In this document: in pieces, positions 5,322 to 38,971 of the stretch
Position numbering within the stretch: position 1 is the first letter of the stretch
Layout of the letters: the number at the start of each line of letters is the position of its first letter
Origin: Escherichia coli
Lineage (GTDB): Bacteria > Pseudomonadota > Gammaproteobacteria > Enterobacterales > Enterobacteriaceae
DNA: 64,000 nt
NCBI RefSeq assembly: GCF_003334355.1
Contig: NZ_QOWP01000017.1
Direction: 5' to 3' (one strand)
Made by a program: the position numbers and the translations under genes
Notes under the pieces: model-generated
Told to the model about the DNA's origin: nothing
Database searches by the model: none
The model's input: only the letters and a program-made list of their open reading frames with translations

Positions 5322-5335
5322 GGTGTTTACTCCGT

Positions 5336-6114: not shown

Positions 6115-6117
6115 GCG

Positions 6118-6321: not shown

Positions 6322-6830
6322 CAGATTTGACTCACGATGCAGCGCGGCTTGTCCTGGATACGCGCCACCGCCCAGCGCATATCCCGCCACAGTTCATCAA
6401 TGGTGCTGTCAATGCTGTCGGCCTTCTTGTCGCCTTTCGCACTGGCATCCACGCCGCGATAACGCTCATAAAGCGACGCGGTCGCCATCGCGCACACGGC
6501 GCGCTCGTAGTAAAAAACCTTGATGCTTTCACCGTCGATGTCGTCCGCCGGAACGTCCGCCAGACGCGTAAAACCGGCAGCAATTTTCTGTTCGCGGTAC
6601 TCGTACAGCTCCGCATTCGTCTCCGCCATGCCTGACTTGATGGCCTCACGCAGACGGGCGGGGGCGACGGTCTGCTCAAGGCGCATACGTTCCCGGACGC
6701 GCTTCGGGTCGATATCGGGAAAAAAGAACGTGTTTTTAATCACCGGCTCGTCGCCTGCCGGTTGCGGGATGACCACCGTACCCTCACCGGACACGGGAGC
6801 CTCCTTTCGCGGAATAATCAGCGTCATCAT
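6321..6830 (-). CDS. L: Head completion protein gpL
   Basis: Internal Met of track ORF gives 169-aa MMTLIIPRKEAPVSGEG..., the size of P2 gpL. Confidence 0.85.
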   Translation of the reverse strand: MMTLIIPRKEAPVSGEGTVVIPQPAGDEPVIKNTFFFPDIDPKRVRERMRLEQTVAPARLREAIKSGMAETNAELYEYREQKIAAGFTRLADVPADDIDGESIKVFYYERAVCAMATASLYERYRGVDASAKGDKKADSIDSTIDELWRDMRWAVARIQDKPRCIVSQI

Positions 6831-6929
6831 GACTACCTCTGAAAAGTCGGGCGGTGGACGCCGGTGCAGTGTCAGGTGATTCACCCTCACTGACCGGCGT
6901 GCCGCCCTGGCGCGGGGCGCATTCGGTTG

Positions 6930-7673: not shown

Positions 7674-7676
7674 CGG

Positions 7677-8750: not shown

Positions 8751-8808
8751 AGTTTTTCCTGAAATTAAGGGTTAATCGTGAAGGTTTTCCCGGACTGACT
8801 GACGCCGG

Positions 8809-9663
8809 TCAGCAGTTCGTCATCAGGGCGTCACCGCCACCACCGGTGGCCTTGCTGCGGCGCTGCTGGGTCAGACTTTCGGTGTGGTCGAGACTGTTTT
8901 TCAGGCGGGTGAATGCCTGGCTGGTTTCATCCGCCCTGTCAGTCACATCCTGCTTAAGTGCGGAAAAAGCGGTTTCCATCTCAGCGAGGCGCTGCTCAGT
9001 GGCGCTCAGTTTTTCCTGCACATGTTCAGCAACAGCGGTCACCGCTTCATGCACGTCATTCAGACGGGCGTCATCGCTGGCCTGTTTGCGGCCAAAAATG
9101 GACTTCACCTTTTCGGTCAGGGCGGTGAACACGGTTTCAGGCAGGTCTTCAAATTCCAGCTCAACGGGCGTTGCCACTGAAATCAGGTTTTCAGGGCTTA
9201 ATTTGAAGCGGTTCAGGGGGTTGTGTTTTGCCGTGCGGCAGAATTCCAGGTATTCCGTGCCGAGGCTTGCCGGGTCATCGGTGACGGCCAGACCCACCAG
9301 ATAACATTTGCCGGTATTGGCAAAGTTCGGCTGAATTTCCATTGAGGTATAGACCTTCTGCGCGGCCTTGTTCATCGCGATAAGGTCATCGGTCGGGGTG
9401 ATTTTCGCAAACAGCGCCCATTTGCCTTTCAGCGCCGAATCATCGTCAATCTTTTCGGCCTTCAGTTCGGCCACATCGCCATAACGCTTAAAAATACCGT
9501 CAGGCAGGATGCCGCGCAGATGTTCCAGGTTAATGCGGCAACCATAGACTCGCGGGTCAAAGGTTTCGGCCATTTCCTGAATATCCTGCGCACTGATGAC
9601 ACGCCCGTCACAGGTGTCACCCTCAACGCCGATACGAAAGAATTTTGAGACTTTTTTTGCCAT
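8809..9663 (-). CDS. O: Capsid scaffolding protein gpO
   Basis: Internal Met gives 284-aa MAKKVSKFFRIGVEGDTCDGRVISAQ..., the size of P2 gpO. Confidence 0.9.
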   Translation of the reverse strand: MAKKVSKFFRIGVEGDTCDGRVISAQDIQEMAETFDPRVYGCRINLEHLRGILPDGIFKRYGDVAELKAEKIDDDSALKGKWALFAKITPTDDLIAMNKAAQKVYTSMEIQPNFANTGKCYLVGLAVTDDPASLGTEYLEFCRTAKHNPLNRFKLSPENLISVATPVELEFEDLPETVFTALTEKVKSIFGRKQASDDARLNDVHEAVTAVAEHVQEKLSATEQRLAEMETAFSALKQDVTDRADETSQAFTRLKNSLDHTESLTQQRRSKATGGGGDALMTNC

Positions 9664-9836
9664 TGTCAGGAGTCCTGAATAGTGATTAGAGGAGTCACAT
9701 GTCGGCATCAGTTTCCCGACGATGCGCATCCTCCGCCATCAGTCCCGGATGGCTTATCACTGACACAACAGCACCTTAGCGAATCGCGGGGCGCGACTCA
9801 GTAGCCTTGCCGTGTATTCATCACGGCGAGGTATTC
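9664..9836. promoter_or_regulatory. Divergent late promoter region between O and P (Ogr-dependent in P2)
   Basis: Position between divergently transcribed late operons; from P2 biology, motif not pinpointed. Confidence 0.45.
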
Positions 9837-11609
9837 ATGACCATCACCACAGACACCACTCTTTTACACGACCCGCGTCGTCAGGCGGCGCTGCTGTACT
9901 GGCAGGGGTTTTCCGTGCCGCAGATTGCCGCCATGTTGCAGATGAAACGCCCGACGGTGCAGAGCTGGAAACAGCGCGACGGCTGGGACAGCGTTGCCCC
10001 CATCAGCCGTGTCGAAATGAGTCTGGAAGCGCGGCTGACCCAGCTCATCATCAAACCGCAGAAAACCGGCGGTGACTTCAAGGAAATTGACCTGCTGGGA
10101 CGCCAGATTGAACGGCTGGCGCGGGTCAACCGCTACAGTCAGACCGGCAACGAGGCAGACCTTAATCCGAACGTCGCTAACCGCAACAAAGGCGGGCGTC
10201 GCAAACCGAAAAAGAATTTTTTCAGTGACGAGGCCATCGAAAAGCTGGAGCAGATTTTCTTTGAGCAGTCTTTCGACTATCAGTTGCACTGGTATCGCGC
10301 CGGGCTTGAGCACCGCATCCGCGATATCCTGAAATCCCGCCAGATTGGCGCGACGTTTTATTTTTCCCGCGAGGCGCTGCTGCGCGCCCTGAAAACCGGT
10401 CATAACCAGATTTTTCTGTCGGCCAGTAAAACGCAGGCGTATGTGTTCCGCGAATACATCATCGCCTTTGCCCGGCTGGTTGACGTTGACCTGACCGGTG
10501 ACCCGATTGTCCTGGGCAATAACAGCGCAAAACTGATTTTTCTCGGCACCAACTCCAACACCGCGCAGAGCCATAACGGCGACCTGTACGTCGACGAGAT
10601 TTTCTGGATCCCGAATTTTCAGGTACTGCGTAAGGTGGCATCAGGTATGGCCTCACAGAGTCACCTGCGTTCGACCTATTTCTCCACCCCGTCCACGCTG
10701 GCGCACGACGCCTACCCGTTCTGGTCGGGTGAACTGTTTAACCGGGGACGCGCCAGCGCCGCCGAACGCGTGGAAATCGACGTCAGTCATAACGCCCTTG
10801 CCGGTGGACTTCTCTGTGCGGACGGCCAGTGGCGGCAGATTGTCACCATTGAGGACGCCCTGAAAGGCGGCTGCACGCTGTTCGACATTGAGCAGCTCAA
10901 ACGCGAAAACAGCGCCGACGATTTTAAAAACCTGTTCATGTGTGAATTTGTTGACGACAAGGCGTCGGTGTTCCCGTTCGAGGAGCTGCAACGCTGCATG
11001 GTCGACACGCTGGAAGAATGGGAAGACTATGCGCCGTTTGCCGCGAATCCGTTCGGCTCCCGCCCGGTATGGATTGGTTACGACCCGTCACACCGTGGCG
11101 ACAGCGCCGGATGCGTGGTACTGGCACCGCCGGTGGTAGCCGGTGGCAAATTCAGAATACTTGAGCGTCACCAGTGGAAAGGCATGGACTTTGCCACTCA
11201 GGCTGAATCCATCCGCAAACTCACCGAGAAATACAACGTCGAATACATCGGTATTGATGCCACCGGCCTCGGTGTCGGCGTGTTCCAGCTCGTGCGCTCG
11301 TTCTATCCCGCCGCACGCGACATCCGCTACACGCCGGAAATGAAAACCGCAATGGTGCTCAAGGCAAAAGACGTTATCCGCCGTGGCTGTCTGGAATATG
11401 ACGTCAGCGCCACCGACATCACCAGCTCGTTTATGGCTATCCGCAAGACCATGACCAGCAGCGGACGCAGCGCCACCTATGAGGCCAGCCGCAGCGAGGA
11501 AGCCAGCCACGCCGACCTCGCCTGGGCGACCATGCACGCCCTGTTAAATGAGCCACTCACCGCCGGTATCAGCACCCCGCTGACATCCACCATTCTGGAG
11601 TTTTACTGA
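9837..11609 (+). CDS. P: Terminase large (ATPase) subunit gpP
   Basis: Internal Met gives 590-aa MTITTDTTLLHDPRRQAALLYWQGF..., the size of P2 gpP. Confidence 0.9.
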   Translation: MTITTDTTLLHDPRRQAALLYWQGFSVPQIAAMLQMKRPTVQSWKQRDGWDSVAPISRVEMSLEARLTQLIIKPQKTGGDFKEIDLLGRQIERLARVNRYSQTGNEADLNPNVANRNKGGRRKPKKNFFSDEAIEKLEQIFFEQSFDYQLHWYRAGLEHRIRDILKSRQIGATFYFSREALLRALKTGHNQIFLSASKTQAYVFREYIIAFARLVDVDLTGDPIVLGNNSAKLIFLGTNSNTAQSHNGDLYVDEIFWIPNFQVLRKVASGMASQSHLRSTYFSTPSTLAHDAYPFWSGELFNRGRASAAERVEIDVSHNALAGGLLCADGQWRQIVTIEDALKGGCTLFDIEQLKRENSADDFKNLFMCEFVDDKASVFPFEELQRCMVDTLEEWEDYAPFAANPFGSRPVWIGYDPSHRGDSAGCVVLAPPVVAGGKFRILERHQWKGMDFATQAESIRKLTEKYNVEYIGIDATGLGVGVFQLVRSFYPAARDIRYTPEMKTAMVLKAKDVIRRGCLEYDVSATDITSSFMAIRKTMTSSGRSATYEASRSEEASHADLAWATMHALLNEPLTAGISTPLTSTILEFY

Positions 11610-12643
11610 TGAGCAAGAAAAAAGGGAAAACACCGCAACCTGCGGCAAAAAAAATGACCGCCAGCGCCCCGAAAATGGAGGCATTCACCTTTGGTGAGCC
11701 GGTGCCGGTACTCGACCGCCGTGACATTCTGGATTACGTCGAGTGCATCAGTAACGGCAGATGGTATGAGCCACCGGTCAGCTTTACCGGTCTGGCAAAA
11801 AGTCTGCGTGCTGCCGTGCATCACAGCTCACCGATTTACGTCAAACGTAATATTCTGGCCTCGACATTTATCCCGCATCCGTGGCTTTCCCAGCAGGATT
11901 TCAGCCGCTTTGTGCTGGATTTTCTGGTGTTCGGTAATGCGTTTCTGGAAAAGCGTTACAGCACCACCGGTAAGGTCATCAGACTGGAAACCTCACCGGC
12001 CAAATATACCCGTCGTGGCGTGGAGGAGGATGTTTACTGGTGGGTGCCGTCCTTCAACGAGCCGACAGCCTTCGCGCCCGGCTCCGTGTTTCATCTGCTG
12101 GAGCCTGATATTAATCAGGAGCTGTACGGCCTGCCGGAATATCTCAGCGCCCTTAACTCTGCCTGGCTGAATGAGTCGGCCACGCTGTTCCGCCGCAAGT
12201 ATTACGAAAACGGCGCACATGCCGGATACATCATGTACGTCACCGATGCCGTGCAGGACCGCAACGATATCGAAATGCTTCGCGAAAACATGGTGAAGTC
12301 GAAAGGCCGCAACAACTTTAAAAACCTGTTTCTCTATGCCCCGCAGGGGAAAGCCGACGGCATTAAAATTATCCCGCTCAGTGAAGTGGCGACGAAGGAC
12401 GATTTTTTTAATATCAAAAAAGCCAGCGCCGCTGACCTGCTGGACGCGCACCGCATCCCTTTTCAGTTGATGGGCGGCAAGCCGGAGAACGTCGGATCGC
12501 TGGGCGATATTGAGAAAGTGGCAAAGGTCTTTGTCCGCAATGAGCTTATCCCGCTACAGGACAGAATTCGGGAAATAAACGGCTGGCTCGGCCAGGAGGT
12601 CATCCGCTTTAAAAACTACTCACTGGAGACTGACAACGGCTGA
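11609..12643 (+). CDS. Q: Portal protein gpQ
   Basis: ORF track 344 aa MSKKKGKTPQPAAKKM...; recognised as P2 gpQ family. Confidence 0.9.
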   Translation: MSKKKGKTPQPAAKKMTASAPKMEAFTFGEPVPVLDRRDILDYVECISNGRWYEPPVSFTGLAKSLRAAVHHSSPIYVKRNILASTFIPHPWLSQQDFSRFVLDFLVFGNAFLEKRYSTTGKVIRLETSPAKYTRRGVEEDVYWWVPSFNEPTAFAPGSVFHLLEPDINQELYGLPEYLSALNSAWLNESATLFRRKYYENGAHAGYIMYVTDAVQDRNDIEMLRENMVKSKGRNNFKNLFLYAPQGKADGIKIIPLSEVATKDDFFNIKKASAADLLDAHRIPFQLMGGKPENVGSLGDIEKVAKVFVRNELIPLQDRIREINGWLGQEVIRFKNYSLETDNG

Positions 12644-12648
12644 ACATC

Positions 12649-12670
12649 GCCGCCTGCGGGCGGCTTTTTT
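12649..12670 (+). terminator. Intrinsic terminator after Q
   Basis: gccgcc-tgcg-ggcggc hairpin followed by T6 at 12665..12670, 5 nt after Q stop. Confidence 0.7.
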
Positions 12671-12812
12671 ACACCCCGCCATCACGCCCTCACACGCTCA
12701 TCACCGCACAAAAAATCCCGCAGACACACCAACGCCTCAACTGGCAGACTAAACGCCATCACGACGCGCTCAGACGCTGAAAAAATAAAATCAGCACCAC
12801 CGCCAGCGCGCA

Positions 12813-12831
12813 GTGCTTTCCCCGCCTCGCC
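12813..12831. other. cos: P2 cos site (19-nt cohesive end, joined in prophage)
   Basis: gtgctttccccgcctcgcc is the reverse complement of the P2 cohesive end GGCGAGGCGGGGAAAGCAC (from memory); lies between Q and A as expected. Confidence 0.85.
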
Positions 12832-13116
12832 CGCCCGCTTCATGGGGCGGTTTTAATGCAGTTGCATAGATACTATGGATCCGCACCAGTCCTGACCGCA
12901 CGCAGCCTGAACGGACATCCCCAACGCATGCAAAAACATTCACTTGTTGCATGCATAGCTTTTTAAGTACGCCATACCGCAACTGTACATTTTTAAGCAA
13001 TTGGCAACCTTAAAAAATTTACATTGCTTTCAAGACCTTATCATCCGTAGTCTCTGTTTTTTACTTTGAGCTACATCAATAAAATCTCAAACATGTTTAA
13101 TGCAAAGCCCTTGTTA

Positions 13117-13169
13117 CACAACATAGAATGTATGTCTAGAAACAACGACATACTATATGTTGTGTTTTT
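13117..13169 (+). terminator. Interrupted 15-bp stem-loop plus T5 (terminator-like or operator)
   Basis: cacaacata/tatgttgtg outer stem and tatgtc/gacata inner stem, 10-nt loop, then ttttt. Confidence 0.3.
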
Positions 13170-13231
13170 CCGGCTCTCTGTTCGGTGATATGCCAAATCA
13201 CTTTGCGTTTAAACAGAGCATTATTTCAGGG

Positions 13232-13246
13232 CAAGACTTCGCTCAA
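13232..13246. repeat. Direct repeat copy 1 (caagacttcgctcaa)
   Basis: Exact 15-mer also at 13496..13510. Confidence 0.9.
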
Positions 13247-13309
13247 AAGTCATTCCACCTAAGAAGCGCATATACCGGTGGAAGTTGCCCTCTACTTACA
13301 GGAGGCAAT

Positions 13310-13423
13310 ATGAAGAAATGCTATTACTGCATTCTCGTTCTGGCCCTCTTTGGCTATCCAAACGGTAGTCCGAGTGGTTTGTCAGTAAACGTCAGTAATA
13401 TCAATGTCAGCATTATGCTTTAA
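13310..13423 (+). CDS. Hypothetical small hydrophobic peptide (37 aa) in the P2 old/tin hotspot
   Basis: aggagg at 13300..13305, 4-nt spacer, ATG; MKKCYYCILVLALFGYPNGSPSGLSVNVSNINVSIML; terminator directly downstream. No homolog recognised. Confidence 0.4.
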   Translation: MKKCYYCILVLALFGYPNGSPSGLSVNVSNINVSIML

Positions 13424-13440
13424 TATGCTTCAAACAAAAA

Positions 13441-13465
13441 AACCACCTGCCAGGGTGGTTTTTTT
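13441..13465. terminator. Bidirectional intrinsic terminator
   Basis: accacc/ggtggt stem with A-run upstream (13434..13442) and T7 downstream (13459..13465). Confidence 0.65.
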
Positions 13466-13495
13466 GCGCCCATCATCAATACGATGAAAGACTGA

Positions 13496-13510
13496 CAAGA
13501 CTTCGCTCAA
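13496..13510. repeat. Direct repeat copy 2 (caagacttcgctcaa)
   Basis: Exact 15-mer identical to 13232..13246. Confidence 0.9.
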
Positions 13511-13725
13511 GACGAATTATGCGTCGACATAAGGTTACCCGCAATGATTTTATTAGACTAAATGGATGGCCTTTTATGACCCGGATCAAACGGCTGTCCT
13601 TACCGACATGCTAGTCACTCAATAGCATTTAGCCTTCTAATTCAGCATGCTATTGACCTTCTGCTGCCCCATAACTGCTCCGCATAAGCCATTCAATGCC
13701 ATATCAAATCACGTTGTATTTTTAC

Positions 13726-16002
13726 TCAAATTGGTAACGAGAACCCCGGCCACTCATCAGCAACCGGATACGTGAATTTTTTCCCGTCATAATTTACGGT
13801 CGCGCCACGCGCCAGCGCCTCAAGCTCCCATCGTTGCGGCCTGATACCGTTCTGAGCGAGGTCAACGCGGATACGGGTAATTTGCAATCGTTCAGACCTG
13901 GTCAGTCTGGCAGATGGTGCAATTTCATGCGGTTTTAACGGGATTCCGTTTCTTTGCTGACGATTTGGTGTTCTCAGTCCGTGTTTTAATGCGCCCCTGA
14001 GCGCCATCACGACCTCCGGGTCACTCCATTCGATAACACCGTCATCTACCAGATTAAGCACTGCTGCGGCGTGCTCAGAAGGTGTGGGAGCCGGTAACGA
14101 AGTATCACCACCGGTGAGCTTTCCACAGTTATTGACAGGACTCCGAGGCGCGGCGATGCCGCTTTTTAAAGTCAAAGGCTCAACGACCGGAACTTTCGGC
14201 ACAATGCGCCAGTCCGTCGTTCTGGTGATATGAATATGACGCGCGCCGAGATGCGGCGCGTAAATGCCGACCACTCTCTCGACTTCTTCCTCGTACTCGT
14301 TAACGTCATCCGACGGGCTACGGGCAACCCTGACAGTCTGACAATCGCGCGGGACATTTGCCCCACCCTGCGCGCTGATATACAACGCAAAATCACCACT
14401 GTCTGCAGCAGCGCGAGCAGCCTCGACGCGTTCGTCAAACTCATTAGCAATACTGACGCCGCGAGGCAATTTGCGTAGTTCACGGTAAGCCCCCATTGTC
14501 GGCAGGCCAACCGTTTTAAATTGCGGGATGCGCCACGTTGACGCCCATGCGGTAACAGCCGCCGCTGTGTCTTTCAGCGGTCTGCCGGTATCGTTATCGA
14601 GCTGACCATCCAGTGCATAGCCGTCGATGTTTTTTGAAATGTATTTCGCGATATATCCCGCAGCACCGCCCCGGTTAAGGTATTTTGCCTGAAAACGGTT
14701 TCGCGCGGCTCCTCTTTCGTCGCCATCCTCTTTGAGCGCATAGCGACGCATGATTTCGATAATCTGGTTGCGCTGGCGTGGATTACAAAAAAGCATCATA
14801 TGCCAGTGCGGCGTTCCGTCGTGGTGTGGCTCGACGACACGCAAACCGTAGGCCTGTAAATCATTATCCTTGAATGCCGTGCGCATCAGGCTCCAGATAC
14901 GGCAGAGATAACGCTGCGCATCCTTTGGATTAAATGCCTCATCGTTCCAGCCGTGATTAAGCTGAACGGTTTTACTTTCGCCTTTTCCGACCTGACGTGT
15001 CGGGTGATACTTTGACGGCGCGGTCAGCGTGATAAACATCCCCACATCACCCTCTGCGGCGGCGTAACGCTCAATACCGGCAATGGTGTTCATCAGCTCC
15101 ATCCGGCGAATTTCAGGATTAGAAATACTGCCCATCACCTTACTGATAAGGTCGATGCGCTCGCCGGTTTCCCTGTTTTCAAGGTCACACGATTTAAGAA
15201 ATTCCAGATTTGCCTGGCGGCGCGCACGCACATCACGAATGGCATGTTTACTGGCATAAGGAGAACGGTCTTTATTGACCTCCCCGACAGCAATCAGTAA
15301 CGCCTCATGCCAGCGCATACGCTGGCCTTTAAGCTGATGAGTCCACCACTCATCGTTAAACAGGCGGGCAATGGCAGAATATGCCTGCCTCGTGGTCATC
15401 TGTCCTTTACGGTATTTTTTCCAGTAGAGCGGGGAAATATTGAAAGCACGTGCAGCGCCAGCAACATGACCATAGAGGTGAGCCTGCGCCTCATCCGTAA
15501 ACAGCGATTCTTTTTCGCCATGTGCATCAACCCAGGCATCGCAGAGTTCCTCATACATCATGAAAAGCTGCGATGAGATACGGGCAGCAAACTTTTTCAG
15601 CTCCTTGTCATTCATTCCTGGCAGGCGCGCATAGTGGTCACGCTCTGCCAGAAACAGCAACGACGCGTCGGTGTTCATTTCATGGCGCTGATTCACACGC
15701 TCAATGCGCGGCCATAAACGACGCTGAAAAGTGGATGTGAGGAAATAAAACCCGTGCACCGGGCTTTTATTGCGCCGGATGTAGTCATAGCGTGAAGTAA
15801 ACAGCGAGCGCAAAAAGTAAGGCAGGCGGTTAATCGTGGATAAAACACCTTGCACCTGACGCATCTCGTCACGTGTAAGGGGTCTTTCGCGCCCGACAGC
15901 CTCGCGTGGCGCGTTCCATGCATAAGCACCGGTAAACGCCTTACCGGTGCCTGCGGCAAATGCTGACGGAGGGACAAAACGCCCGGAGGCTTTAACGGCC
16001 AT
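13726..16002 (-). CDS. A: Replication initiation protein gpA (rolling-circle nickase)
   Basis: ORF track 772 aa (track start is TTG at 16044); ATG at 16002 gives MAVKASGRFVPPSAF..., matching P2 gpA as recalled; start uncertain. Confidence 0.9.
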   Translation of the reverse strand: MAVKASGRFVPPSAFAAGTGKAFTGAYAWNAPREAVGRERPLTRDEMRQVQGVLSTINRLPYFLRSLFTSRYDYIRRNKSPVHGFYFLTSTFQRRLWPRIERVNQRHEMNTDASLLFLAERDHYARLPGMNDKELKKFAARISSQLFMMYEELCDAWVDAHGEKESLFTDEAQAHLYGHVAGAARAFNISPLYWKKYRKGQMTTRQAYSAIARLFNDEWWTHQLKGQRMRWHEALLIAVGEVNKDRSPYASKHAIRDVRARRQANLEFLKSCDLENRETGERIDLISKVMGSISNPEIRRMELMNTIAGIERYAAAEGDVGMFITLTAPSKYHPTRQVGKGESKTVQLNHGWNDEAFNPKDAQRYLCRIWSLMRTAFKDNDLQAYGLRVVEPHHDGTPHWHMMLFCNPRQRNQIIEIMRRYALKEDGDERGAARNRFQAKYLNRGGAAGYIAKYISKNIDGYALDGQLDNDTGRPLKDTAAAVTAWASTWRIPQFKTVGLPTMGAYRELRKLPRGVSIANEFDERVEAARAAADSGDFALYISAQGGANVPRDCQTVRVARSPSDDVNEYEEEVERVVGIYAPHLGARHIHITRTTDWRIVPKVPVVEPLTLKSGIAAPRSPVNNCGKLTGGDTSLPAPTPSEHAAAVLNLVDDGVIEWSDPEVVMALRGALKHGLRTPNRQQRNGIPLKPHEIAPSARLTRSERLQITRIRVDLAQNGIRPQRWELEALARGATVNYDGKKFTYPVADEWPGFSLPI

Positions 16003-16267
16003 ATGAGCCAAAAGCCTCTGAACAACGCCTGCTGAGTTGCTCAACCTGCGCGTTTAAATCAGCAAAAGACTTTGCGCTTCCGGTCAGAATATCGTGATGC
16101 ATCAGGCCGGAAACGAGCTGGCTTAATTTCGGATAATAACCAACCACCGCCAGCCATTCCTGACCGGCGTTTTTACCGCTTTCCGCTCTCTTTTTCTCGT
16201 GGAGAATAAACTGAAAGCTGTCACTGGTAACGACATAACGTTCGCCAATTTCAATACGAATACTCAT
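15992..16267 (-). CDS. P2 early-operon small protein (orf83-like)
   Basis: ORF track 91 aa; position just upstream of A. Confidence 0.6.
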   Translation of the reverse strand: MSIRIEIGERYVVTSDSFQFILHEKKRAESGKNAGQEWLAVVGYYPKLSQLVSGLMHHDILTGSAKSFADLNAQVEQLSRRCSEAFGSYGR

Positions 16268-16488
16268 GCCGTTCTCCGGTAATGTTTGTTTTTTGCTTCA
16301 AAGACTGACTGGCAGGAAACACAACGCGTGGCTGACGGATAAGCCGCACGACGGGCAGCAGGTATTGGCGCGTCACACTCTTCGCAAACCAGCGCAGAAG
16401 CACCGCAATGTTTTACCCTTGCCGCGTTAATCTGACGCTCCAGTAATTCAGCCTGTTGTTCCTGAATAAAATCCACGTTGTCCGGCAT
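16264..16488 (-). CDS. DksA/TraR-type C4 zinc-finger protein (P2 orf82-like)
   Basis: ORF track 74 aa with CxxC...CxxC (CEECDAPIP...CVSC). Confidence 0.75.
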   Translation of the reverse strand: MPDNVDFIQEQQAELLERQINAARVKHCGASALVCEECDAPIPAARRAAYPSATRCVSCQSVFEAKNKHYRRTA

Positions 16489-16793
16489 TACCAGCTCCTT
16501 TTGTCGTTAAGTTTTTTAAATTCATCAGCGCAATAGCTGGCAATTTCTGTCGTTAATTTCGTCAGTTCATCCACGGAGGAGATTTGCTTGTGAAATACAG
16601 CGCGTTTAACAAGTAAATTGACCACATCAGACAGGATATTTAATTCATTCTGATAAATCGCGATAACAGACTCAGTTATTTCGCGTTTTTCTTTATCAAG
16701 ACCAAGTTGAATAAGAGATAGATCGCCATTTTTCATAACGGTGATTTTTAAGGCGTTATTCAGTAATACAACTGAACGAGAACAGGACATCAA
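16488..16793 (-). CDS. Hypothetical early-operon protein, AT-rich
   Basis: ORF track 101 aa, K/N/I-rich, visibly lower GC than flanking genes; start and stop overlap neighbours. Confidence 0.55.
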
Positions 16794-17014
16794 AGCACCT
16801 CCCCGCGAGACAATCCGATATTGTGAAATTTTTCCGACTCCTGACTGAGCAGCTCGACTATCTCTACGCGGGATAACTCCGCCTTTGTGATGTGTCGAAT
16901 CATGGCGTCAAGATGAGAAGAAAAGCGCGTCGCTGCATCGGCCTGTGCTTCGGTTCTGGCCTGTTGCAGCAGTAATGCGTATTTACCGCACTGATTTTCA
17001 GAAACTGTATGCAT
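16790..17014 (-). CDS. Hypothetical early-operon protein (orf80-like)
   Basis: Track ORF 85 aa; ATG at 17014 preceded by ggaga. Confidence 0.55.
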
Positions 17015-17077
17015 GACTTTCTCCAGGCAAAAAGAAGCCCCGCACAATTAAGTGCGTTAAAAACTCTGGTTAATTAC

Positions 17078-17584
17078 TTAATGCAGATATTGCTCTGGTT
17101 TTACCGACGTCAGAATTGTCGGTGCATACTCAAACAGGCTGAATAATTCACGTAATGCACGGAATAAAGCATCACGCCAGTAACATGATTCTTCATTAAT
17201 TCGCCAGTATGGCTGGTTGAATTCTTTTTCAGTCAATCCGGCATGCATAAATAAAGTACGACGCTGACTGACTGTTAAAAAACTAATATATGCATACTCA
17301 CTTGCGCCAACCTGACGGCGTTTTGAGAATGCCCCACGCAATTCATCAATTGCACAAACCAGCCGTTCACGTTCGACGTCGTTCATTTCTTCAAAACGCA
17401 TCGTTGCGTGACGTTGTTTTAACTGCGCATGAAAGCAAACTGTTAGCCGTTCGCGCTCCATCATCTGATTATAATAATCACATGTATCCTGCCAGCGAGG
17501 GACGGCCAGATGCTTACCAATTATCCGGCGCATAGCTGCTGGCTGTTTTTCAACGAGATTGAGCGTCATCACTGTCATTTCCAT
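17078..17584 (-). CDS. B: Replication protein gpB (helicase loader)
   Basis: ORF track 168 aa ...MTVMTLNLVEKQPAAMRRIIGKHLAVPRWQDTCDYY...; recognised as P2 gpB family. Confidence 0.85.
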   Translation of the reverse strand: MEMTVMTLNLVEKQPAAMRRIIGKHLAVPRWQDTCDYYNQMMERERLTVCFHAQLKQRHATMRFEEMNDVERERLVCAIDELRGAFSKRRQVGASEYAYISFLTVSQRRTLFMHAGLTEKEFNQPYWRINEESCYWRDALFRALRELFSLFEYAPTILTSVKPEQYLH

Positions 17585-17772
17585 ACCCTCCGGCTTTTCA
17601 GAAAGGTCAGAGCCTTTTTTAACGGACTCTGTTTTTTGGTGCGGATAATGATTCCCTTACGCCCCTTACCGTGGGTGATGGTGAAGTCAATCGCCCTGGG
17701 GCTTTCGTTACGCAGTAACTGCGCAATACAACGCGGCTCATTCATAATCACAACCCCATCCACAAAAGCCAT
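17575..17772 (-). CDS. Small early protein between cox and B (orf78-like)
   Basis: ORF track 65 aa; position. Confidence 0.5.
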   Translation of the reverse strand: MAFVDGVVIMNEPRCIAQLLRNESPRAIDFTITHGKGRKGIIIRTKKQSPLKKALTFLKSRRVWK

Positions 17773-18020
17773 GCATCACGCTGTTCAACCGGTCGGTTAT
17801 AAAACGCCTCACGTACAGCGCGATTAAACTCTGGAATGAAAACCCATTTCTCACCGGCGCGGGCCTTCGGCTTATTTGGATCTCGAAGCTCGATAACCGG
17901 TAGCTTGTTAGCCTTTATCATTTCTGTAACTGCGGTTTTTGGTTTACCCAATAAATCTGCAAACTTTTCCGCATGTACCGCATCAAGCGGGTACTTAATC
18001 ACATAATCATTAACTTCCAT
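17748..18020 (-). CDS. cox: Cox (excisionase / switch regulator)
   Basis: ORF track 90 aa MEVNDYVIKYPLDAVHAEKFADLLGKPKTAVTEMIKANKLPVIE...; divergent from C. Confidence 0.85.
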   Translation of the reverse strand: MEVNDYVIKYPLDAVHAEKFADLLGKPKTAVTEMIKANKLPVIELRDPNKPKARAGEKWVFIPEFNRAVREAFYNRPVEQRDAWLLWMGL

Positions 18021-18155
18021 CTATGTTACCCTCATAGGATCCAGCCCCTTAAAAACCGCTTGGAACCGTTTAAGCGGCGCTGGACTCACGCCCGAAAAGG
18101 TTCTGGATTAATGACCTTTTCGGGGAATATAGTCATTAAGTCAGGACTATGTCAA
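18021..18155. promoter_or_regulatory. Immunity switch region (Pe/Pc promoters and operators)
   Basis: Intergenic between divergent cox and C; from P2 biology, sites not pinpointed. Confidence 0.5.
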
Positions 18156-18449
18156 ATGAATATCGCACAGAAATTAAGAGCAATAAGACAATCGGAAGGG
18201 CTAACTCAAGCAAAATTCAGTGAAATCAGCGGCATAGCGTTAGGAACGCTAAAGAATTACGAAGGAGGCCATCAAGACCCTGGCATCCAAGTTGTGTTGC
18301 AGGTCACCAATGCACCTCAGTTCCAAAAATACACACTATGGCTCATGACAGATAAAACAGCGCCGGAAGCGGGACAAATCGCACCGGCTCTCGCGCACAG
18401 TGGGCCAGAGTCAACAGAATCCAACCACTCCGCGAAAAGGATTGGCTAA
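18156..18449 (+). CDS. C: Immunity repressor C
   Basis: Internal ATG at 18156 gives 97 aa MNIAQKLRAIRQSEGLTQAKFSEISGIALGTLKNYEGG... (HTH), C-terminal half like P2 C as recalled. Confidence 0.8.
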   Translation: MNIAQKLRAIRQSEGLTQAKFSEISGIALGTLKNYEGGHQDPGIQVVLQVTNAPQFQKYTLWLMTDKTAPEAGQIAPALAHSGPESTESNHSAKRIG

Positions 18450-18518
18450 CTCTATATAAAAATTACATTTTCACCATTTGCCACCAAGATGGTGAATACA
18501 GCGCCGGAGGGCTTTCTT

Positions 18519-19499
18519 ATGGCAATTAAGAAGCTCGATGATGGTCGCTATGAAGTGGACATTAGACCTCGCGGTCGCGACGGAAAACGCATCCGCAGGA
18601 AATTTGAAAGAAAAGCTGAAGCACTAGCATTTGAGCGATACACAATCGCCAATGCCAGTCAGAAAGAATGGGGAGGCCAGCGAGCAGACCGCCGAACTTT
18701 GACAGAATTGCTCGACATCTGGTGGAAATACCACGGGCAAAACCACGAGCATGGGACAAAAGAGTTTAATCATCTGCTCAAAACCATCAGCGGCATAGGT
18801 GATATACCAGTGAGTCGGATGAACAAAAGGGCTTTGATGGATTATCGCTCCATGCGACTACGTGATGGCATCAGTGCTGCAACGATAAACCGCGACATGT
18901 ACCGATTATCCGGCATGTTCACAAAATTAATTCAATTGGATGAATTTTCCGGGCAACACCCAATTCACGGACTGCCGCCACTGACGGAGGCTAACCCTGA
19001 AATGACGTTCCTGGAAAAAGCAGAAATCGAAAAACTGCTAAATGTTTTGACTGGTGATGACTTACTTGTCGCGCTTTTATGTCTGAGCACTGGAGGAAGG
19101 TGGACGGAAGTTGCCACACTAAAACCAGCACAGATTACAAGTTGCAGGGTTACCTTCCTGAAAACCAAAAACGGTAAAAAGCGAACAGTGCCGATTTCTG
19201 AGGAACTGGAGAAAAAAGTTAAAGAGGAGGCCAGCGCCAAATTGTTCAAGGTAGATTATGAGAAGTTTTGCGGGATTTTACGCAGAGTGAAACCTGATAT
19301 ACCTCCCAATCAGGCAACCCACATTCTGCGGCATACATTCGCAAGCCATTTCATGATGAATGGGGGCAACATAATTGCACTGCAACAGATTCTGGGGCAT
19401 GCGAGCATTCAGCAGACAATGACCTATGCGCACCTTGCGCCTGACTACCTGCAGAACGCCGTCGCTCTGAATCCACTAAAAGGCGGAGTGACGTTATAA
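18519..19499 (+). CDS. int: Tyrosine integrase (P2 Int family)
   Basis: Internal Met gives MAIKKLDDGRYEVDIRPRGRDGKRIRRKFERK..., like P2 Int N-terminus; C-terminal catalytic region ...HILRHTFASHFMMNGGNIIALQQILGHASIQQTMTYAHL. Confidence 0.9.
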   Translation: MAIKKLDDGRYEVDIRPRGRDGKRIRRKFERKAEALAFERYTIANASQKEWGGQRADRRTLTELLDIWWKYHGQNHEHGTKEFNHLLKTISGIGDIPVSRMNKRALMDYRSMRLRDGISAATINRDMYRLSGMFTKLIQLDEFSGQHPIHGLPPLTEANPEMTFLEKAEIEKLLNVLTGDDLLVALLCLSTGGRWTEVATLKPAQITSCRVTFLKTKNGKKRTVPISEELEKKVKEEASAKLFKVDYEKFCGILRRVKPDIPPNQATHILRHTFASHFMMNGGNIIALQQILGHASIQQTMTYAHLAPDYLQNAVALNPLKGGVTL

Positions 19500-19513
19500 A
19501 TTTCCCCTCTGAG

Positions 19514-19532
19514 TGTCCACATAGTGTCCACA
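19514..19532. promoter_or_regulatory. Integrase arm-type binding sites (two direct TGTGGACA repeats on the minus strand)
   Basis: tgtccaca at 19514..19521 and 19525..19532, 11-bp phasing, just after int stop; TGTGGACA is the P2 Int arm motif from memory. Confidence 0.55.
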
Positions 19533-19617
19533 CTCAAGAAATTTTGAAACCGCTCCAGACCCTTACAGCTTTCGATAAATGACTGTTTTTACTATTGATT
19601 GCATGTAAGTGATTGAT

Positions 19618-19675
19618 AAAAAAAACCCCCACATCATGTGGGGGAAGACAGGGATGGTGTCTATGGCAAGGAAAA
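19618..19675 (-). ncRNA. cpxQ: CpxQ sRNA (cpxP 3-prime UTR-derived) including cpxP terminator
   Basis: Minus-strand sequence uuuuccuugccauagacaccaucccugucuucccccacaugauguggggguuuuuuuu matches CpxQ as recalled; hairpin cccccac/gtggggg plus U8. Confidence 0.65.
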
Positions 19676-19684
19676 CAGGGTTTA

Positions 19685-20185
19685 CTACTGGGAACGTGAG
19701 TTGCTACTACTCAATAGCTTCAACGATGAACTTTTTTGCCATTGCGTCACGTCACGCAACTGCTCCATTCGTTGTTGATGTTTCTCGTTTAAAACCGCTT
19801 GCTGCTCCGGCGTTAACAGGCGATACATTTGGTTGCGGACTTTTGCCATCTCAACCTGACGAGCAATTTGCTCATTCGCCATTTTTTCTGCCTGTGCGCG
19901 CACAGCGTTTTCATCAAAATTTTCTGCGGTGACAAGGCGATGCATTGTCTCCAGTTCGCTAACATTAACAGGAGGCTGTTCGTGCCGGGCCTGTTGCATA
20001 AGATCTCGCATCTGCTGACGCTGATGTTCGGTTAAACTTATGCCGTCGAACATATGGCTCTGCGTACTGCGCTGCGTAAGTTCTTCACCCGGATGCCAGT
20101 TATCGCCTGAACCGACTTCAGCAGCGTGGCTTAATGAACTGACTGCCAGCGTTGAGGCCATGACGGCAGCGGTAACTATGCGCAT
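19685..20185 (-). CDS. cpxP: Periplasmic stress adaptor CpxP
   Basis: ORF track; [36 protein letters not shown]... 166 aa from second Met. Confidence 0.95.
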
Positions 20186-20264
20186 CATTTGCTCCCAAAA
20201 TCTTTCTGTCGCGATTCAACGATAGAGAGTTTACGATTCAGGCTGCAAACATGCGTCAGGGGGT

Positions 20265-20279
20265 GTAAAACAACGTAAA
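20265..20279. promoter_or_regulatory. CpxR box (GTAAA-N5-GTAAA) in cpxP/cpxR divergent promoter region
   Basis: gtaaaacaacgtaaa; consensus from the literature. Confidence 0.7.
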
Positions 20280-20334
20280 GTCATGGATTAGCGACGTCTG
20301 ATGACGTAATTTCTGCCTCGGAGGTATTTAAACA

Positions 20335-21033
20335 ATGAATAAAATCCTGTTAGTTGATGATGACCGAGAGCTGACTTCCCTATTAAAGGAGCTGCTCGAG
20401 ATGGAAGGCTTCAACGTGATTGTTGCCCACGATGGGGAACAGGCGCTTGATCTTCTGGACGACAGCATTGATTTACTTTTGCTTGACGTAATGATGCCGA
20501 AGAAAAATGGTATCGACACATTAAAAGCACTTCGCCAGACACACCAGACGCCTGTCATTATGTTGACGGCGCGCGGCAGTGAACTTGATCGCGTTCTCGG
20601 CCTTGAGCTGGGCGCAGATGACTATCTCCCGAAACCGTTTAATGATCGTGAGCTGGTGGCACGTATTCGCGCGATCCTGCGCCGTTCGCACTGGAGCGAG
20701 CAACAGCAAAACAACGACAACGGTTCACCGACACTGGAAGTTGATGCCTTAGTGCTGAATCCAGGCCGTCAGGAAGCCAGCTTCGACGGGCAAACGCTGG
20801 AGTTAACCGGTACTGAGTTTACCCTGCTCTATTTGCTGGCACAGCATCTGGGTCAGGTGGTTTCCCGTGAACATTTAAGCCAGGAAGTGTTGGGCAAACG
20901 CCTGACGCCTTTCGACCGCGCTATTGATATGCACATTTCCAACCTGCGTCGTAAACTGCCGGATCGTAAAGATGGTCACCCGTGGTTTAAAACCTTGCGT
21001 GGTCGCGGCTATCTGATGGTTTCTGCTTCATGA
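20335..21033 (+). CDS. cpxR: Response regulator CpxR
   Basis: ORF track 232 aa MNKILLVDDDRELTSLLKELLEMEGFNV... Confidence 0.97.
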   Translation: MNKILLVDDDRELTSLLKELLEMEGFNVIVAHDGEQALDLLDDSIDLLLLDVMMPKKNGIDTLKALRQTHQTPVIMLTARGSELDRVLGLELGADDYLPKPFNDRELVARIRAILRRSHWSEQQQNNDNGSPTLEVDALVLNPGRQEASFDGQTLELTGTEFTLLYLLAQHLGQVVSREHLSQEVLGKRLTPFDRAIDMHISNLRRKLPDRKDGHPWFKTLRGRGYLMVSAS

Positions 21034-22403
21034 TAGGCAGCTTAACCGCGCGCATCTTCGCCATCTTCTGGCTGACGCTGGCGCTGGTGTTGATGTTGGT
21101 TTTGATGTTACCCAAGCTCGATTCACGCCAGATGACCGAGCTTCTGGATAGCGAACAGCGTCAGGGGCTGATGATTGAGCAGCATGTCGAAGCGGAGCTG
21201 GCGAACGATCCGCCCAACGATTTAATGTGGTGGCGGCGTCTGTTCCGGGCGATTGATAAGTGGGCACCGCCAGGACAGCGTTTGTTATTGGTGACCACCG
21301 AAGGCCGCGTGATCGGCGCTGAACGCAGCGAAATGCAGATCATTCGTAACTTTATTGGTCAGGCCGATAACGCCGATCATCCGCAGAAGAAAAAGTATGG
21401 CCGCGTGGAACTGGTCGGTCCGTTCTCCGTGCGTGATGGCGAAGATAATTACCAACTTTATCTGATTCGTCCGGCCAGCAGTTCTCAATCCGATTTCATT
21501 AACTTACTGTTTGACCGCCCGCTATTACTGCTGATTGTCACCATGTTGGTCAGTACGCCGCTGCTGTTGTGGTTGGCCTGGAGTCTGGCAAAACCGGCGC
21601 GTAAGCTGAAAAACGCTGCCGATGAAGTTGCCCAGGGAAACTTACGCCAGCACCCGGAACTGGAAGCGGGGCCACAGGAATTCCTTGCCGCAGGTGCCAG
21701 TTTTAACCAGATGGTCACCGCGCTGGAGCGCATGATGACCTCTCAGCAGCGTCTGCTTTCTGATATCTCTCACGAGCTGCGCACCCCGCTGACGCGTCTG
21801 CAACTGGGTACGGCGTTACTGCGCCGTCGTAGCGGTGAAAGCAAGGAACTGGAGCGTATTGAAACCGAAGCGCAACGTCTGGACAGCATGATCAACGATC
21901 TGTTGGTGATGTCACGTAATCAGCAAAAAAACGCGCTGGTTAGCGAAACCATCAAAGCCAACCAGTTGTGGAGTGAAGTGCTGGATAACGCGGCGTTCGA
22001 AGCCGAGCAAATGGGCAAGTCGTTGACAGTTAACTTCCCGCCTGGGCCGTGGCCGCTGTACGGCAATCCGAACGCCCTGGAAAGTGCGCTGGAAAACATT
22101 GTTCGTAATGCTCTGCGTTATTCCCATACGAAGATTGAAGTGGGCTTTGCGGTAGATAAAGACGGTATCACCATTACGGTGGACGACGATGGTCCTGGCG
22201 TTAGCCCGGAAGATCGCGAACAGATTTTCCGTCCGTTCTATCGGACCGATGAAGCACGCGATCGTGAATCTGGCGGTACAGGATTGGGGCTGGCGATTGT
22301 TGAAACCGCCATTCAGCAGCATCGTGGCTGGGTGAAGGCAGAAGACAGCCCGCTGGGCGGTTTACGGCTGGTGATTTGGTTGCCGCTGTATAAGCGGAGT
22401 TAA
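21030..22403 (+). CDS. cpxA: Sensor histidine kinase CpxA
   Basis: ORF track 457 aa; overlaps cpxR stop. Confidence 0.97.
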   Translation: MIGSLTARIFAIFWLTLALVLMLVLMLPKLDSRQMTELLDSEQRQGLMIEQHVEAELANDPPNDLMWWRRLFRAIDKWAPPGQRLLLVTTEGRVIGAERSEMQIIRNFIGQADNADHPQKKKYGRVELVGPFSVRDGEDNYQLYLIRPASSSQSDFINLLFDRPLLLLIVTMLVSTPLLLWLAWSLAKPARKLKNAADEVAQGNLRQHPELEAGPQEFLAAGASFNQMVTALERMMTSQQRLLSDISHELRTPLTRLQLGTALLRRRSGESKELERIETEAQRLDSMINDLLVMSRNQQKNALVSETIKANQLWSEVLDNAAFEAEQMGKSLTVNFPPGPWPLYGNPNALESALENIVRNALRYSHTKIEVGFAVDKDGITITVDDDGPGVSPEDREQIFRPFYRTDEARDRESGGTGLGLAIVETAIQQHRGWVKAEDSPLGGLRLVIWLPLYKRS

Positions 22404-38970: not shown

Positions 38971-38971
38971 A

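What the first reader, a model, noticed from the sequence alone, without database searches (positions are those of the whole stretch)
19500..19685. Prophage junction sits directly on the cpxP 3-prime UTR / CpxQ terminator
Seen: int ends at 19499; two TGTGGACA-type arm repeats lie at 19514..19532; the cpxP terminator hairpin and CpxQ-like sequence lie at 19618..19675, leaving about 85 bp for the att core. Established: the classical P2 site is elsewhere and its 27-bp core (as recalled) is not present here. Inference: this phage uses a cpxP-proximal attB, and the core may overlap the sRNA terminator, so integration could rebuild or alter the CpxQ 3-prime end and downstream fieF expression.
Basis: partly seen in the sequence, partly recalled or inferred. 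Interest (0 to 1): 0.5.

Follow-up and report, generated by a model that had tools for sequence, protein, structure and literature searches.

The report
Known WΦ-type prophage site in CpxQ
This is the left junction of a P2-like (WΦ/L-413C/P37-type) prophage at its already described attachment site between cpxP and fieF; the 47-bp crossover core is the 3' end of the CpxQ small RNA, which the phage carries in its own DNA and rebuilds on integration, so the case is ordinary.

Summary

The geometry needs one correction. The roughly 85 bp between the repeats and the terminator is phage arm DNA, not the core. The core is the 47 bp at 19615-19661. It consists of 3 bp plus the last 44 nt of the cpxP 3' UTR/CpxQ: U-tract, terminator hairpin and 17 nt upstream.

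The same 47-mer has these properties:
- It is single in prophage-free strains.
- It flanks both prophage ends in the closest complete genomes.
- It sits in the attP of free phages WΦ, L-413C and P37.

Int is 100% identical to P37 Int, 97% to WΦ Int and 51.5% to P2 Int.

This is the published WΦ attB (MG1655 4104392; "cpxP-fieF" in the E. coli W genome paper). It is occupied in about 15% of 5,426 complete E. coli genomes.

Hairpin variants place strand exchange within 19640-19659. In lysogens, CpxQ's terminator is therefore phage-derived DNA. Both cpxP/CpxQ and the fieF upstream region are reconstituted.

The case parallels P2, whose 27-bp core is the 3' end of CyaR. Interest is low: the site is already known, with modest added detail.

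The parts
1..19614 (.). Right-hand ~19.6 kb of a ~29.5-kb P2-like (Peduovirus) prophage. The rest of the prophage, including the fieF-side junction, lies outside the window.
   Evidence: The window 1..19614 matches free P2-like phages at 96-97% over 89-100% of its length. Window 1..21730 is collinear with strain EC31 at 99.2%; there the prophage spans 29,455 bp between core copies, and the window start lies ~9.8 kb inside it.
18156..18449 (+). Immunity repressor C (helix-turn-helix). It is co-directional with int and reads towards cpxP.
   Evidence: Placed by coordinate correspondence (offset 1503) with the RefSeq annotation of Ecol_224. The ORF end at 18449 appears.
18519..19499 (+). P2-family tyrosine integrase (the longest ORF starts at 18489).
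   Evidence: ORF. Identity is 100% to P37 Int, 97.9% to L-413C, 96.9% to WΦ, 67.8% to the L002-type Int and 51.5% to P2 Int. Against P2, the N-terminal arm-binding 30 aa are 27/30 identical and residues ~60-120 are the most divergent.
19512..19532 (.). Int arm-type binding sites: two direct repeats AGTGTCCACA (reverse complement TGTGGACACT). In P2 nomenclature this is the int-proximal P' arm.
   Evidence: The consensus tgTGGaCa for P2-type arm sites is given in PMC3448106. The P2 record annotates the int-proximal arm as P'.
19533..19614 (.). Phage-only spacer of the P' arm. By position it corresponds to the Cox-binding region of P2 attP (inferred).
   Evidence: It is present in the attP of WΦ, L-413C and P37 and absent from empty attB.
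19615..19661 (.). 47-bp att core (O): GATAAAAAAAACCCCCACATCATGTGGGGGAAGACAGGGATGGTGTC.
   Evidence: It is identical in WΦ, L-413C and P37 attP. It occurs at both prophage ends in Ecol_224 and EC31, with no extension on either side. It is single in the empty site, apart from one loop polymorphism.
19640..19659 (.). Segment within which strand exchange must occur. The candidate is AGACA-GGGATGG-TGTCT (19646-19662), a 5-bp inverted repeat around a 7-bp spacer (inferred).
   Evidence: The left limit comes from hairpin variants that always segregate phage-type to the cpxP side and host-type to the fieF side. The right limit is set by other Int lineages whose identity with the host ends after ...GGATGGTG.
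19618..19644 (-). Rho-independent terminator of cpxP/CpxQ: stem-loop 19626-19644 and U8 tract 19618-19625.
19618..19684 (-). cpxP 3' UTR. The ~60-nt CpxQ sRNA occupies most of it. Its last 44 nt (19618-19661) lie inside the core.
   Evidence: The sequence and cpxP stop are. [quoted passage not shown] The segment is conserved in at least 120 Enterobacterales species.
19685..20188 (-). cpxP coding sequence, intact.
   Evidence: RefSeq annotates WP_001223800.1 in matching genomes.

Best explanation
Window 19500-19685 is attL (B-O-P') of a WΦ/L-413C/P37-type P2-like prophage integrated at the known WΦ attB between cpxP and fieF.

The phage attP carries a 47-bp copy of host sequence: 3 bp of intergenic DNA plus the last 44 nt of the cpxP 3' UTR/CpxQ sRNA. 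Int binds the TGTGGACA arm repeats through its N-terminal domain, and binds the core through its divergent core-binding domain.

Strand exchange takes place in the highly conserved, non-hairpin CpxQ segment at 19640-19659. As a result, the cpxP-side junction joins the host CpxQ 5' part to a phage-supplied terminator hairpin and U-tail. The fieF-side junction keeps the host terminator in front of the untouched fieF upstream region. Both host transcription units are therefore reconstituted.

Shown here:
- the anatomy of the junction;
- core identity with free-phage attP;
- the direct repeat at both prophage ends in the closest genomes;
- the single copy in empty sites;
- the way hairpin variants segregate between the two junctions.

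Inferred:
- the exact cleavage positions;
- Cox binding in the spacer;
- unchanged CpxQ and fieF expression.
For: - Empty-site homology starts at 19615.
- The 47-mer is identical in WΦ, L-413C and P37 attP.
- It is an exact 47-bp direct repeat at both prophage ends in EC31 (29,455 bp apart) and in Ecol_224.
- Int is 97-100% identical to the Int of these phages.
- The window's phage part is 96-97% identical to viable Peduovirus phages.
- Among 5,426 complete E. coli genomes, 4,593 have an intact attB, 803 have the int-side junction and 786 have the fieF-side junction.
- No genome has the K-12 loop allele (G) at the cpxP-side junction. About 155 lysogens, by subtraction, have G at the fieF side. 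One was inspected directly.
- In Serratia proteamaculans CCUG 14510 and Citrobacter sp. NCU1, the whole hairpin is phage-type at the cpxP side and native at the fieF side.
- The literature lists WΦ and L-413C at MG1655 4104392 with identical cores (PMC3448106), and 'cpxP-fieF: Wphi1 (P2)' (PMC3032704).
Against: - The window does not contain the other junction, and its exact source genome is not in the collection (best match 99.2-99.8%). The direct repeat is therefore shown in close relatives only.
- No experiment here shows that this particular prophage can still excise.
- The cleavage sites are not mapped; only a 20-bp interval is bounded.
- The count of about 155 G-allele fieF-side junctions is obtained by subtracting identity-band counts, not by listing genomes.
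Confidence: 0.9

Rival explanations
1. One reading: the att core lies in the ~85 bp between the arm repeats and the terminator (19533-19617), and at most touches the terminator.
For: Only the spacing argument: an unexplained 82 bp lies between the arm repeats and the hairpin.
Against: This stretch is absent from empty attB sites and from the fieF-side junction. It is present only in phage attP. Identity between attP, attB, attL and attR is confined to 19615-19661.
Confidence: 0.01
2. Strand exchange occurs inside the terminator hairpin. Its perfect inverted repeat (19626-19644) would serve as the two core-type Int sites, so CpxQ's terminator in lysogens would be a host/phage mosaic.
For: Tyrosine recombinase cores are usually inverted repeats around a short spacer, and the hairpin is the strongest inverted repeat in the core.
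Against: - The spacer between the hairpin arms is only 1-3 bp.
- Variants in both halves of the stem and in the loop co-segregate. They are all phage-type at the cpxP side and all host-type at the fieF side.
- This places the exchange on the cpxP side of 19639.
Confidence: 0.06
3. Besides serving as att, the phage-borne 44-nt CpxQ 3' module is itself expressed. It would form the 3' end of the ogr-side cargo transcript, in the free phage and at the fieF-side junction, and act as a truncated CpxQ-like Hfq-binding RNA (mimic or sponge). Alternatively, the prophage Pc (C-int) transcript reads antisense through CpxQ and modulates it.
For: - In close relatives, a cargo ORF ends 82 bp upstream of the fieF-side core on the CpxQ strand, with no other good terminator in between.
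- No plus-strand terminator is predicted between the int stop and cpxP.
- CpxQ was a dominant Hfq partner of phage RNAs during lambda infection (bioRxiv 10.1101/2024.10.31.621285).
Against: - No expression data exist.
- WΦ and L-413C have a separate ogr terminator before the arm.
- The copy lacks the CpxQ 5' end and the RNase E site that generates it.
- The identity is fully explained by the requirements of recombination, as it is for phages that integrate into tRNA genes.
Confidence: 0.1
4. The junction is a fossil: the prophage is defective and the att site no longer functions in this strain.
For: Some prophages at this site are visibly degraded. Strain 51008369SK1 carries ISEc12, IS66 and IS150 insertions and a truncated replication gene. 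Short remnants exist in Erwinia, Rosenbergiella and Tatumella.
Against: The window's 19.6 kb is collinear with viable phages at 96-97%. int is full-length and 100% identical to that of the isolated phage P37. The closest genome has a complete 29.5-kb prophage with perfect core repeats.
Confidence: 0.12

Closest known systems
Phage WΦ (Peduovirus Wphi, NC_005056) attP/attB, and its relatives L-413C and P37
   Same: The 47-bp core, the TGTGGACA arm repeats and the attP layout are identical. Int is 97-100% identical. The chromosomal site is the same: MG1655 4104392, between cpxP and fieF (PMC3448106; PMC3032704).
   Different: Nothing essential differs. The immunity and cargo regions differ among members. 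The window phage is closest to P37 for int and to Salmonella phage MET_P1_103_31 and 'P2' T22 overall. No paper in the searchable library describes the core as the CpxQ 3' end.
Phage P2 attP/attB locI at the cyaR sRNA gene
   Same: The phage family and arm-site consensus are the same. The N-terminal Int domain is nearly identical (27/30). The core is the 3' end of an Hfq-dependent sRNA (part of the terminator plus the U-tract). P2's annotated 27-bp core equals the last 27 nt of CyaR, next to the ogrK remnant in K-12.
   Different: - The core sequence, core length (27 vs 47 bp) and chromosomal locus all differ.
- Int is only 51.5% identical overall and is divergent in the core-binding region.
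- The sRNA orientation relative to the phage is inverted. CyaR reads int to ogr and stays at the ogr-side junction. CpxQ reads ogr to int and stays at the int-side junction.
- The P2 core is absent from the window.
Phage and island integration into the 3' ends of tRNA/tmRNA genes (186 in tRNA-Ile, HP1 in tRNA-Leu, Fels-2 and SopEΦ in ssrA)
   Same: The logic is the same. attP carries a copy of the 3' part of a conserved structured RNA gene, so the gene is restored at one junction and a partial 3' copy remains at the other (PMC3448106).
   Different: The target here is a 3'UTR-derived sRNA and terminator rather than a tRNA or tmRNA. PMC3448106 classed P2-type sites as lying 'between other genes', because CpxQ had not yet been described.
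Other P2-like Int lineages that use the same CpxQ site (for example the L002 episome type with TGTCTACA arm repeats)
   Same: The host target and the cpxP-proximal boundary of identity (...GGATGGTG) are the same. These lineages were found in E. coli, Erwinia, Kosakonia, Citrobacter, Serratia, Yokenella and Pseudocitrobacter, and in IMG/VR contigs.
   Different: Int is 65-90% identical, and the arm repeats and arm sequences differ. The core identity is 45 bp rather than 47 bp.

Membership tests
WΦ-type P2-like att system | A P2-family tyrosine integrase gene lies directly next to att and reads towards it. | tested here: met
   int is 18519-19499 (+) and ends 116 bp before the core. It is 96.9% identical to WΦ Int and 100% identical to P37 Int.
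WΦ-type P2-like att system | The core sequence is identical to the WΦ attP core. | tested here: met
   47 of 47 positions are identical to WΦ, L-413C and P37 attP.
WΦ-type P2-like att system | Arm-type direct repeats (tgTGGaCa) are present on both arms. | tested here: met
   The int-proximal arm is in the window at 19512-19532. The ogr-proximal arm (CTGTCCACATAGCGTCCACA) is seen in the attP of relatives and at the fieF-side junction of Ecol_224; it lies outside the window.
WΦ-type P2-like att system | The core occurs as a direct repeat at both prophage ends and as a single copy in prophage-free strains. | tested here: met
   EC31 and Ecol_224 carry it at both ends. It is single in 4,593 of 5,426 genomes. 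Only one copy is in the window, because the other prophage end lies outside it.
WΦ-type P2-like att system | Int/IHF/Cox-dependent integration and excision activity. | not testable with these tools
   This needs in vivo or in vitro recombination assays.
Classical P2 att (locI / cyaR core) | The 27-bp core AAAAAATAAGCCCGTGTAAGGGAGATT is present. | tested here: not met
   No match in the window at up to 3 mismatches. Int is only 51.5% identical to P2 Int.
CpxQ (3'UTR-derived Hfq-dependent sRNA of cpxP) | It lies in the cpxP 3' UTR and ends at the cpxP Rho-independent terminator. | tested here: met
   The cpxP stop is at 19685-19687. The terminator is at 19618-19644 on the minus strand.
CpxQ (3'UTR-derived Hfq-dependent sRNA of cpxP) | It is exceptionally conserved across Enterobacterales. 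| tested here: met
Where the flank is host DNA it lies next to a cpxP homologue, the adjacent TCTATGGCAAGGAAAA is also conserved, and the terminator stem shows compensatory changes.
CpxQ (3'UTR-derived Hfq-dependent sRNA of cpxP) | It matches a curated RNA family model. | tested here: inconclusive
   No Rfam family reaches its gathering score here. The best hit is Hrs1 (RF02628) at 44.5 bits against a threshold of 56.4, and it is on the opposite strand.
CpxQ (3'UTR-derived Hfq-dependent sRNA of cpxP) | RNase E processing and Hfq binding. | not testable with these tools
   Taken from the literature only (PMC9438474, PMC4817254).
Integration into the 3' end of a structured RNA gene with reconstitution | The identity block starts just beyond the RNA's 3' end and extends into the gene. 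A full gene is kept at one junction and a 3' fragment at the other. | tested here: met
   The core runs from 3 bp beyond the U-tract to 44 nt into CpxQ. cpxP and the full UTR are intact at attL. A 44-nt fragment remains at the fieF side.

The most novel reading that the evidence does not exclude
P2-like phages carry the conserved 3' two-thirds of CpxQ for more than recombination. Two effects are possible. First, the phage-borne copy could be transcribed as the 3' end of ogr-side cargo mRNAs, giving a truncated Hfq-binding CpxQ mimic or sponge. Second, the convergent Pc (C-int) transcript could run antisense across CpxQ. Either way, lysogeny would tune the Cpx envelope-stress response.

A weaker version is also open. 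The CpxQ site may be a hotspot across Enterobacterales, shared by many Int lineages because its 20-nt unpaired segment is functionally frozen.
Probability: 0.1. Interest if true: 0.55.

Novelty: already known. Interest (0 to 1): 0.22.

Why it matters
The main use is for annotation and interpretation.

- About 15% of complete E. coli genomes carry a P2-like prophage here. In all of them the cpxP/CpxQ unit and the fieF upstream region are restored, so the prophage should not be read as disrupting the Cpx response.
- A second, partial CpxQ copy sits in front of fieF in lysogens. It can confuse sRNA annotation and read mapping.

Two modest additions to the published WΦ att work follow from this analysis.

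1. The core is the 3' end of an Hfq-dependent sRNA that was named only later. This matches P2 and CyaR exactly, so targeting sRNA terminators looks like a family habit.
2. Natural hairpin variants bound the strand exchange to 20 bp of the most conserved part of CpxQ. They also show that the CpxQ terminator in lysogens is phage DNA.

Tried and rejected
- Rfam has no model that calls CpxQ here. The only notable hit, Hrs1, is sub-threshold and on the opposite strand, so identification rests on position relative to cpxP and on the literature.
- Scanning the P2 attP region with Rfam did not recover CyaR, because only 27 nt are present. The link was confirmed instead in K-12 DNA.
- Karlsson et al. 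2006 (PMC1482927), which should hold the original WΦ attB mapping, is not in the library. I relied on the 2011 follow-up paper and on the E. coli W genome paper.
- Literature searches for CpxQ with prophage or att, and for cpxP with P2-like, returned nothing that states the overlap. One broad search was uninformative.
- The window's own genome is not in the complete-genome set. Ecol_224 matches the junction at 100% but differs elsewhere, and the best overall match is EC31 at 99.2-99.8%.
- The E. coli loop polymorphism alone could not place the crossover at first, because the phage allele (T) is also the majority host allele. This was resolved with the G-allele subset and with the cross-genus hairpin variants.
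- Rejected ideas: a core inside 19533-19614, a crossover inside the hairpin, and any relation to the P2 locI core.

Full report
**1. The observation**

- int occupies 18489/18519..19499 (+).
- Thirteen bases after the int stop codon, AGTGTCCACA occurs twice, at 19512-19521 and 19523-19532. The reverse complement TGTGGACAC has three occurrences in the 64-kb window against 0.41 expected. Two of the three are here.
- On the minus strand, cpxP is 19685..20188. Its 3' UTR runs down to a canonical intrinsic terminator, with stem 19644..19626 followed by T8 at 19625..19618. This is the only terminator-like site in 19300-19900.
- The classical P2 27-bp core is absent from the window.

**2. Where the junction really is**

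Comparison with 5,426 complete E. coli genomes shows that prophage-free strains match the window only from 19615 rightwards. I aligned the window junction with four other sequences:
- a K-12-type empty site (L001);
- the fieF-side junction of lysogen Ecol_224 (L003);
- the attP regions of free phages WΦ, L-413C and P37;
- the attP region of P2.

The alignment gives one shared block: GATAAAAAAAACCCCCACATCATGTGGGGGAAGACAGGGATGGTGTC, which is window 19615-19661, 47 bp. WΦ, L-413C and P37 carry it exactly. P2 does not.

In the annotated P2 attP, the corresponding position holds the Cox-binding region between the core and the int-proximal P' arm.

The window's source genome is not in the collection. 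The closest complete genome is EC31, at 99.2% over window 1..21730. There the same 47-mer is an exact direct repeat, 29,455 bp apart, at the two ends of a complete P2-like prophage. The identity does not extend by a single base on either side. The window begins about 9.8 kb inside the prophage.

**3. What the core is**

Of the 47 bp, 44 (19618-19661) are the last 44 nt of the cpxP 3' UTR: the U8 tract, the 19-nt terminator hairpin and 17 nt upstream of it. The literature describes CpxQ as an ~60-nt Hfq-dependent sRNA. RNase E cleaves it from the cpxP mRNA near the stop codon, and it spans almost the whole 3' UTR (PMC9438474; PMC4817254). The phage therefore carries roughly the 3' three-quarters of CpxQ.

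Rfam has no model that calls it. The best hit is Hrs1, below threshold and on the opposite strand.

**4. Whose site it is**

- The integrase is 100% identical to that of Yersinia phage P37, 97.9% to L-413C and 96.9% to WΦ.
- It is only 51.5% identical to P2 Int. Against P2, the N-terminal arm-binding 30 residues are nearly identical (27/30) and residues ~60-120 are the most divergent.
- This pattern matches the description in PMC3448106: conserved terminal domains and a variable core-binding domain.
- The rest of the window's phage part is 96-97% identical to isolated Peduovirus phages.
- PMC3448106 Table 1 places the integration site of both WΦ and L-413C at MG1655 coordinate 4104392. It states that their cores are identical and that the site had been identified earlier.
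- The E. coli W genome paper lists 'cpxP-fieF: Wphi1 (P2)' among prophage insertion sites (PMC3032704).

This is therefore the known WΦ-type attB. I found no paper in the searchable library that links this core to CpxQ, which was named after the att work.

**5. How common it is**

| Category among 5,426 complete E. coli genomes | Count |
|---|---|
| Intact attB | 4,593 |
| WΦ-type int-side junction | 803 |
| Matching fieF-side junction | 786 |

About 15% of genomes are therefore occupied.

A second Int lineage also uses the site. Its Int is 67.8% identical, with TGTCTACA arm repeats. It appears as a circular 32.3-kb P2-like episome (L002) whose attP holds 45-46 bp of the same core.

Where the flank is host DNA, the 20-mer lies downstream of a cpxP homologue.
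- P2-family integrases end 125-150 bp from it in Kosakonia, Yokenella, Serratia, Citrobacter, Pseudocitrobacter and Erwinia.
- Short remnants occur in Erwinia, Rosenbergiella and Tatumella.
- In IMG/VR, 96 viral-contig stretches carry the 20-mer. They show many different phage arm sequences, all diverging directly after ...GGATGGTG(TC). The adjacent integrases are 65-100% identical to the two reference types.

**6. Where strand exchange occurs, and what integration does to CpxQ**

The terminator loop is polymorphic in E. coli at window position 19634. The phage and most hosts have T; K-12 and about 900 other genomes have G.
- No genome has G at the cpxP-side junction. The best full-length hits to a G-allele junction query all carry one mismatch.
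- About 155 lysogens have G at the fieF-side junction. This figure comes from subtracting identity-band counts.
- One such lysogen was inspected directly. Strain 51008369SK1 has T at the cpxP side and G at the fieF side.

Other genera give stronger evidence.
- In Serratia proteamaculans CCUG 14510, the fieF-side junction keeps the native Serratia hairpin CCCCGCCATCATGGCGGGG. The cpxP-side junction has the phage hairpin CCCCCTCATCATGAGGGGG.
- Citrobacter sp. NCU1 shows the same pattern.

The exchange therefore lies on the cpxP side of 19639. Identity in other lineages ends after 19659, so the exchange also lies before that point. This bounds it to 19640-19659.

Within and just beyond that interval, AGACA-GGGATGG-TGTCT (19646-19662) is a 5-bp inverted repeat around a 7-bp spacer. 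It is a plausible core-site and overlap arrangement, but this is inference.

The consequences are as follows.
- In every lysogen, the CpxQ terminator and U-tail are phage-derived and the CpxQ 5' part is host-derived. In the window the two versions are identical in sequence.
- At the other end, the host terminator, followed by the complete cpxP-fieF intergenic region, stays in front of fieF.
- Integration therefore rebuilds both transcription units. The only alterations are neutral loop or compensatory stem variants.

**7. Comparison with the known**

The closest relative system is WΦ itself, of which this is a member. The instructive parallel is P2. Its annotated 27-bp attP core equals the last 27 nt of the CyaR sRNA, immediately next to the ogrK remnant in K-12. 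The E. coli W paper lists 'cyaR RNA' and 'rybB ncRNA' as P2-type insertion sites.

The general logic is that of integration into the 3' ends of tRNA or tmRNA genes (186, HP1, Fels-2). One difference from P2 is orientation. CpxQ is transcribed from the ogr side towards int, so its terminator cannot terminate int transcripts. No plus-strand terminator is predicted between int and cpxP. This leaves antisense read-through from the prophage Pc promoter as an untested possibility.

**8. Verdict**

The feature is an already known attachment site, so interest is low.

The added value of this analysis is threefold:
- the explicit identification of the core as the CpxQ 3' end;
- the 20-bp bound on the crossover, obtained from natural variants;
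- the breadth of use of this site across Enterobacterales.

The only reading with real novelty is a regulatory role for the phage-borne CpxQ fragment or for antisense transcription. It has no direct support here.

Noticed in passing
window 19618-19690 (+): Rfam family Hrs1 (RF02628, 'Hfq-regulated sRNA 1') matches at 44.5 bits (threshold 56.4) on the strand opposite to cpxP. Its consensus starts with an A-run followed by a hairpin, which looks like a terminator read backwards. The family may be a CpxQ homologue modelled on the antisense strand.
   Followed up: partly
L131 30801-31442 (EC31) and L003 14286-14927 (Ecol_224), outside the window: Close relatives of this prophage carry a 213-aa cargo gene between ogr and the fieF-side att copy. 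It matches the PADLOC anti-phage defence candidate PD-T4-10_B (E = 1e-34). Only this one component was checked. Its transcript would run into the phage-borne CpxQ terminator.
   Followed up: partly
L010 (strain 51008369SK1), 20400-40100: The prophage at the same site is degraded: ISEc12, IS66-family and IS150 insertions and a truncated replication gene. Its cpxP-side terminator reads CCCC instead of CCCCC. This could be a real 1-nt deletion in the CpxQ terminator stem or a homopolymer sequencing error.
   Followed up: no
L092 and L093 (Kosakonia oryziphila, one contig, sampled ranges ~16 kb apart): L093 is a hybrid junction. It joins a WΦ-like int-side arm and a partial int to an L002-type ogr-side arm around the CpxQ core. 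L092 is an L002-type int next to cpxP. This suggests two different P2-like elements in tandem at the same site.
   Followed up: no
L002 (NZ_JBQJRQ010000002.1) and hit H117: A complete P2-like phage genome is assembled as a circular 32.3-kb 'plasmid' with an intact attP that contains the CpxQ core. The chromosome of the same strain shows only a cpxP-side match to the attB query. It may be an excised or replicating phage, or an assembly artefact.
   Followed up: no
window 12644-13725: About 1.1 kb between the portal gene and replication gene A has no ORF longer than 88 aa. This is the position of cos and of the old/tin cargo genes in P2, and here it seems to hold no cargo gene.
   Followed up: no
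window 22418-22495 (+), 31340-31410 (-), 31432-31502 (-), 40581-40639 (+): There are three naRNA4 (REP-derived) Rfam hits and one SECIS_3 element above their gathering scores. These are ordinary chromosomal features downstream of cpxA.
   Followed up: no
window 19500-19900 (+): No plus-strand terminator is predicted after the int stop codon. The prophage C-int transcript may therefore continue antisense through CpxQ and the 3' end of cpxP.
   Followed up: partly
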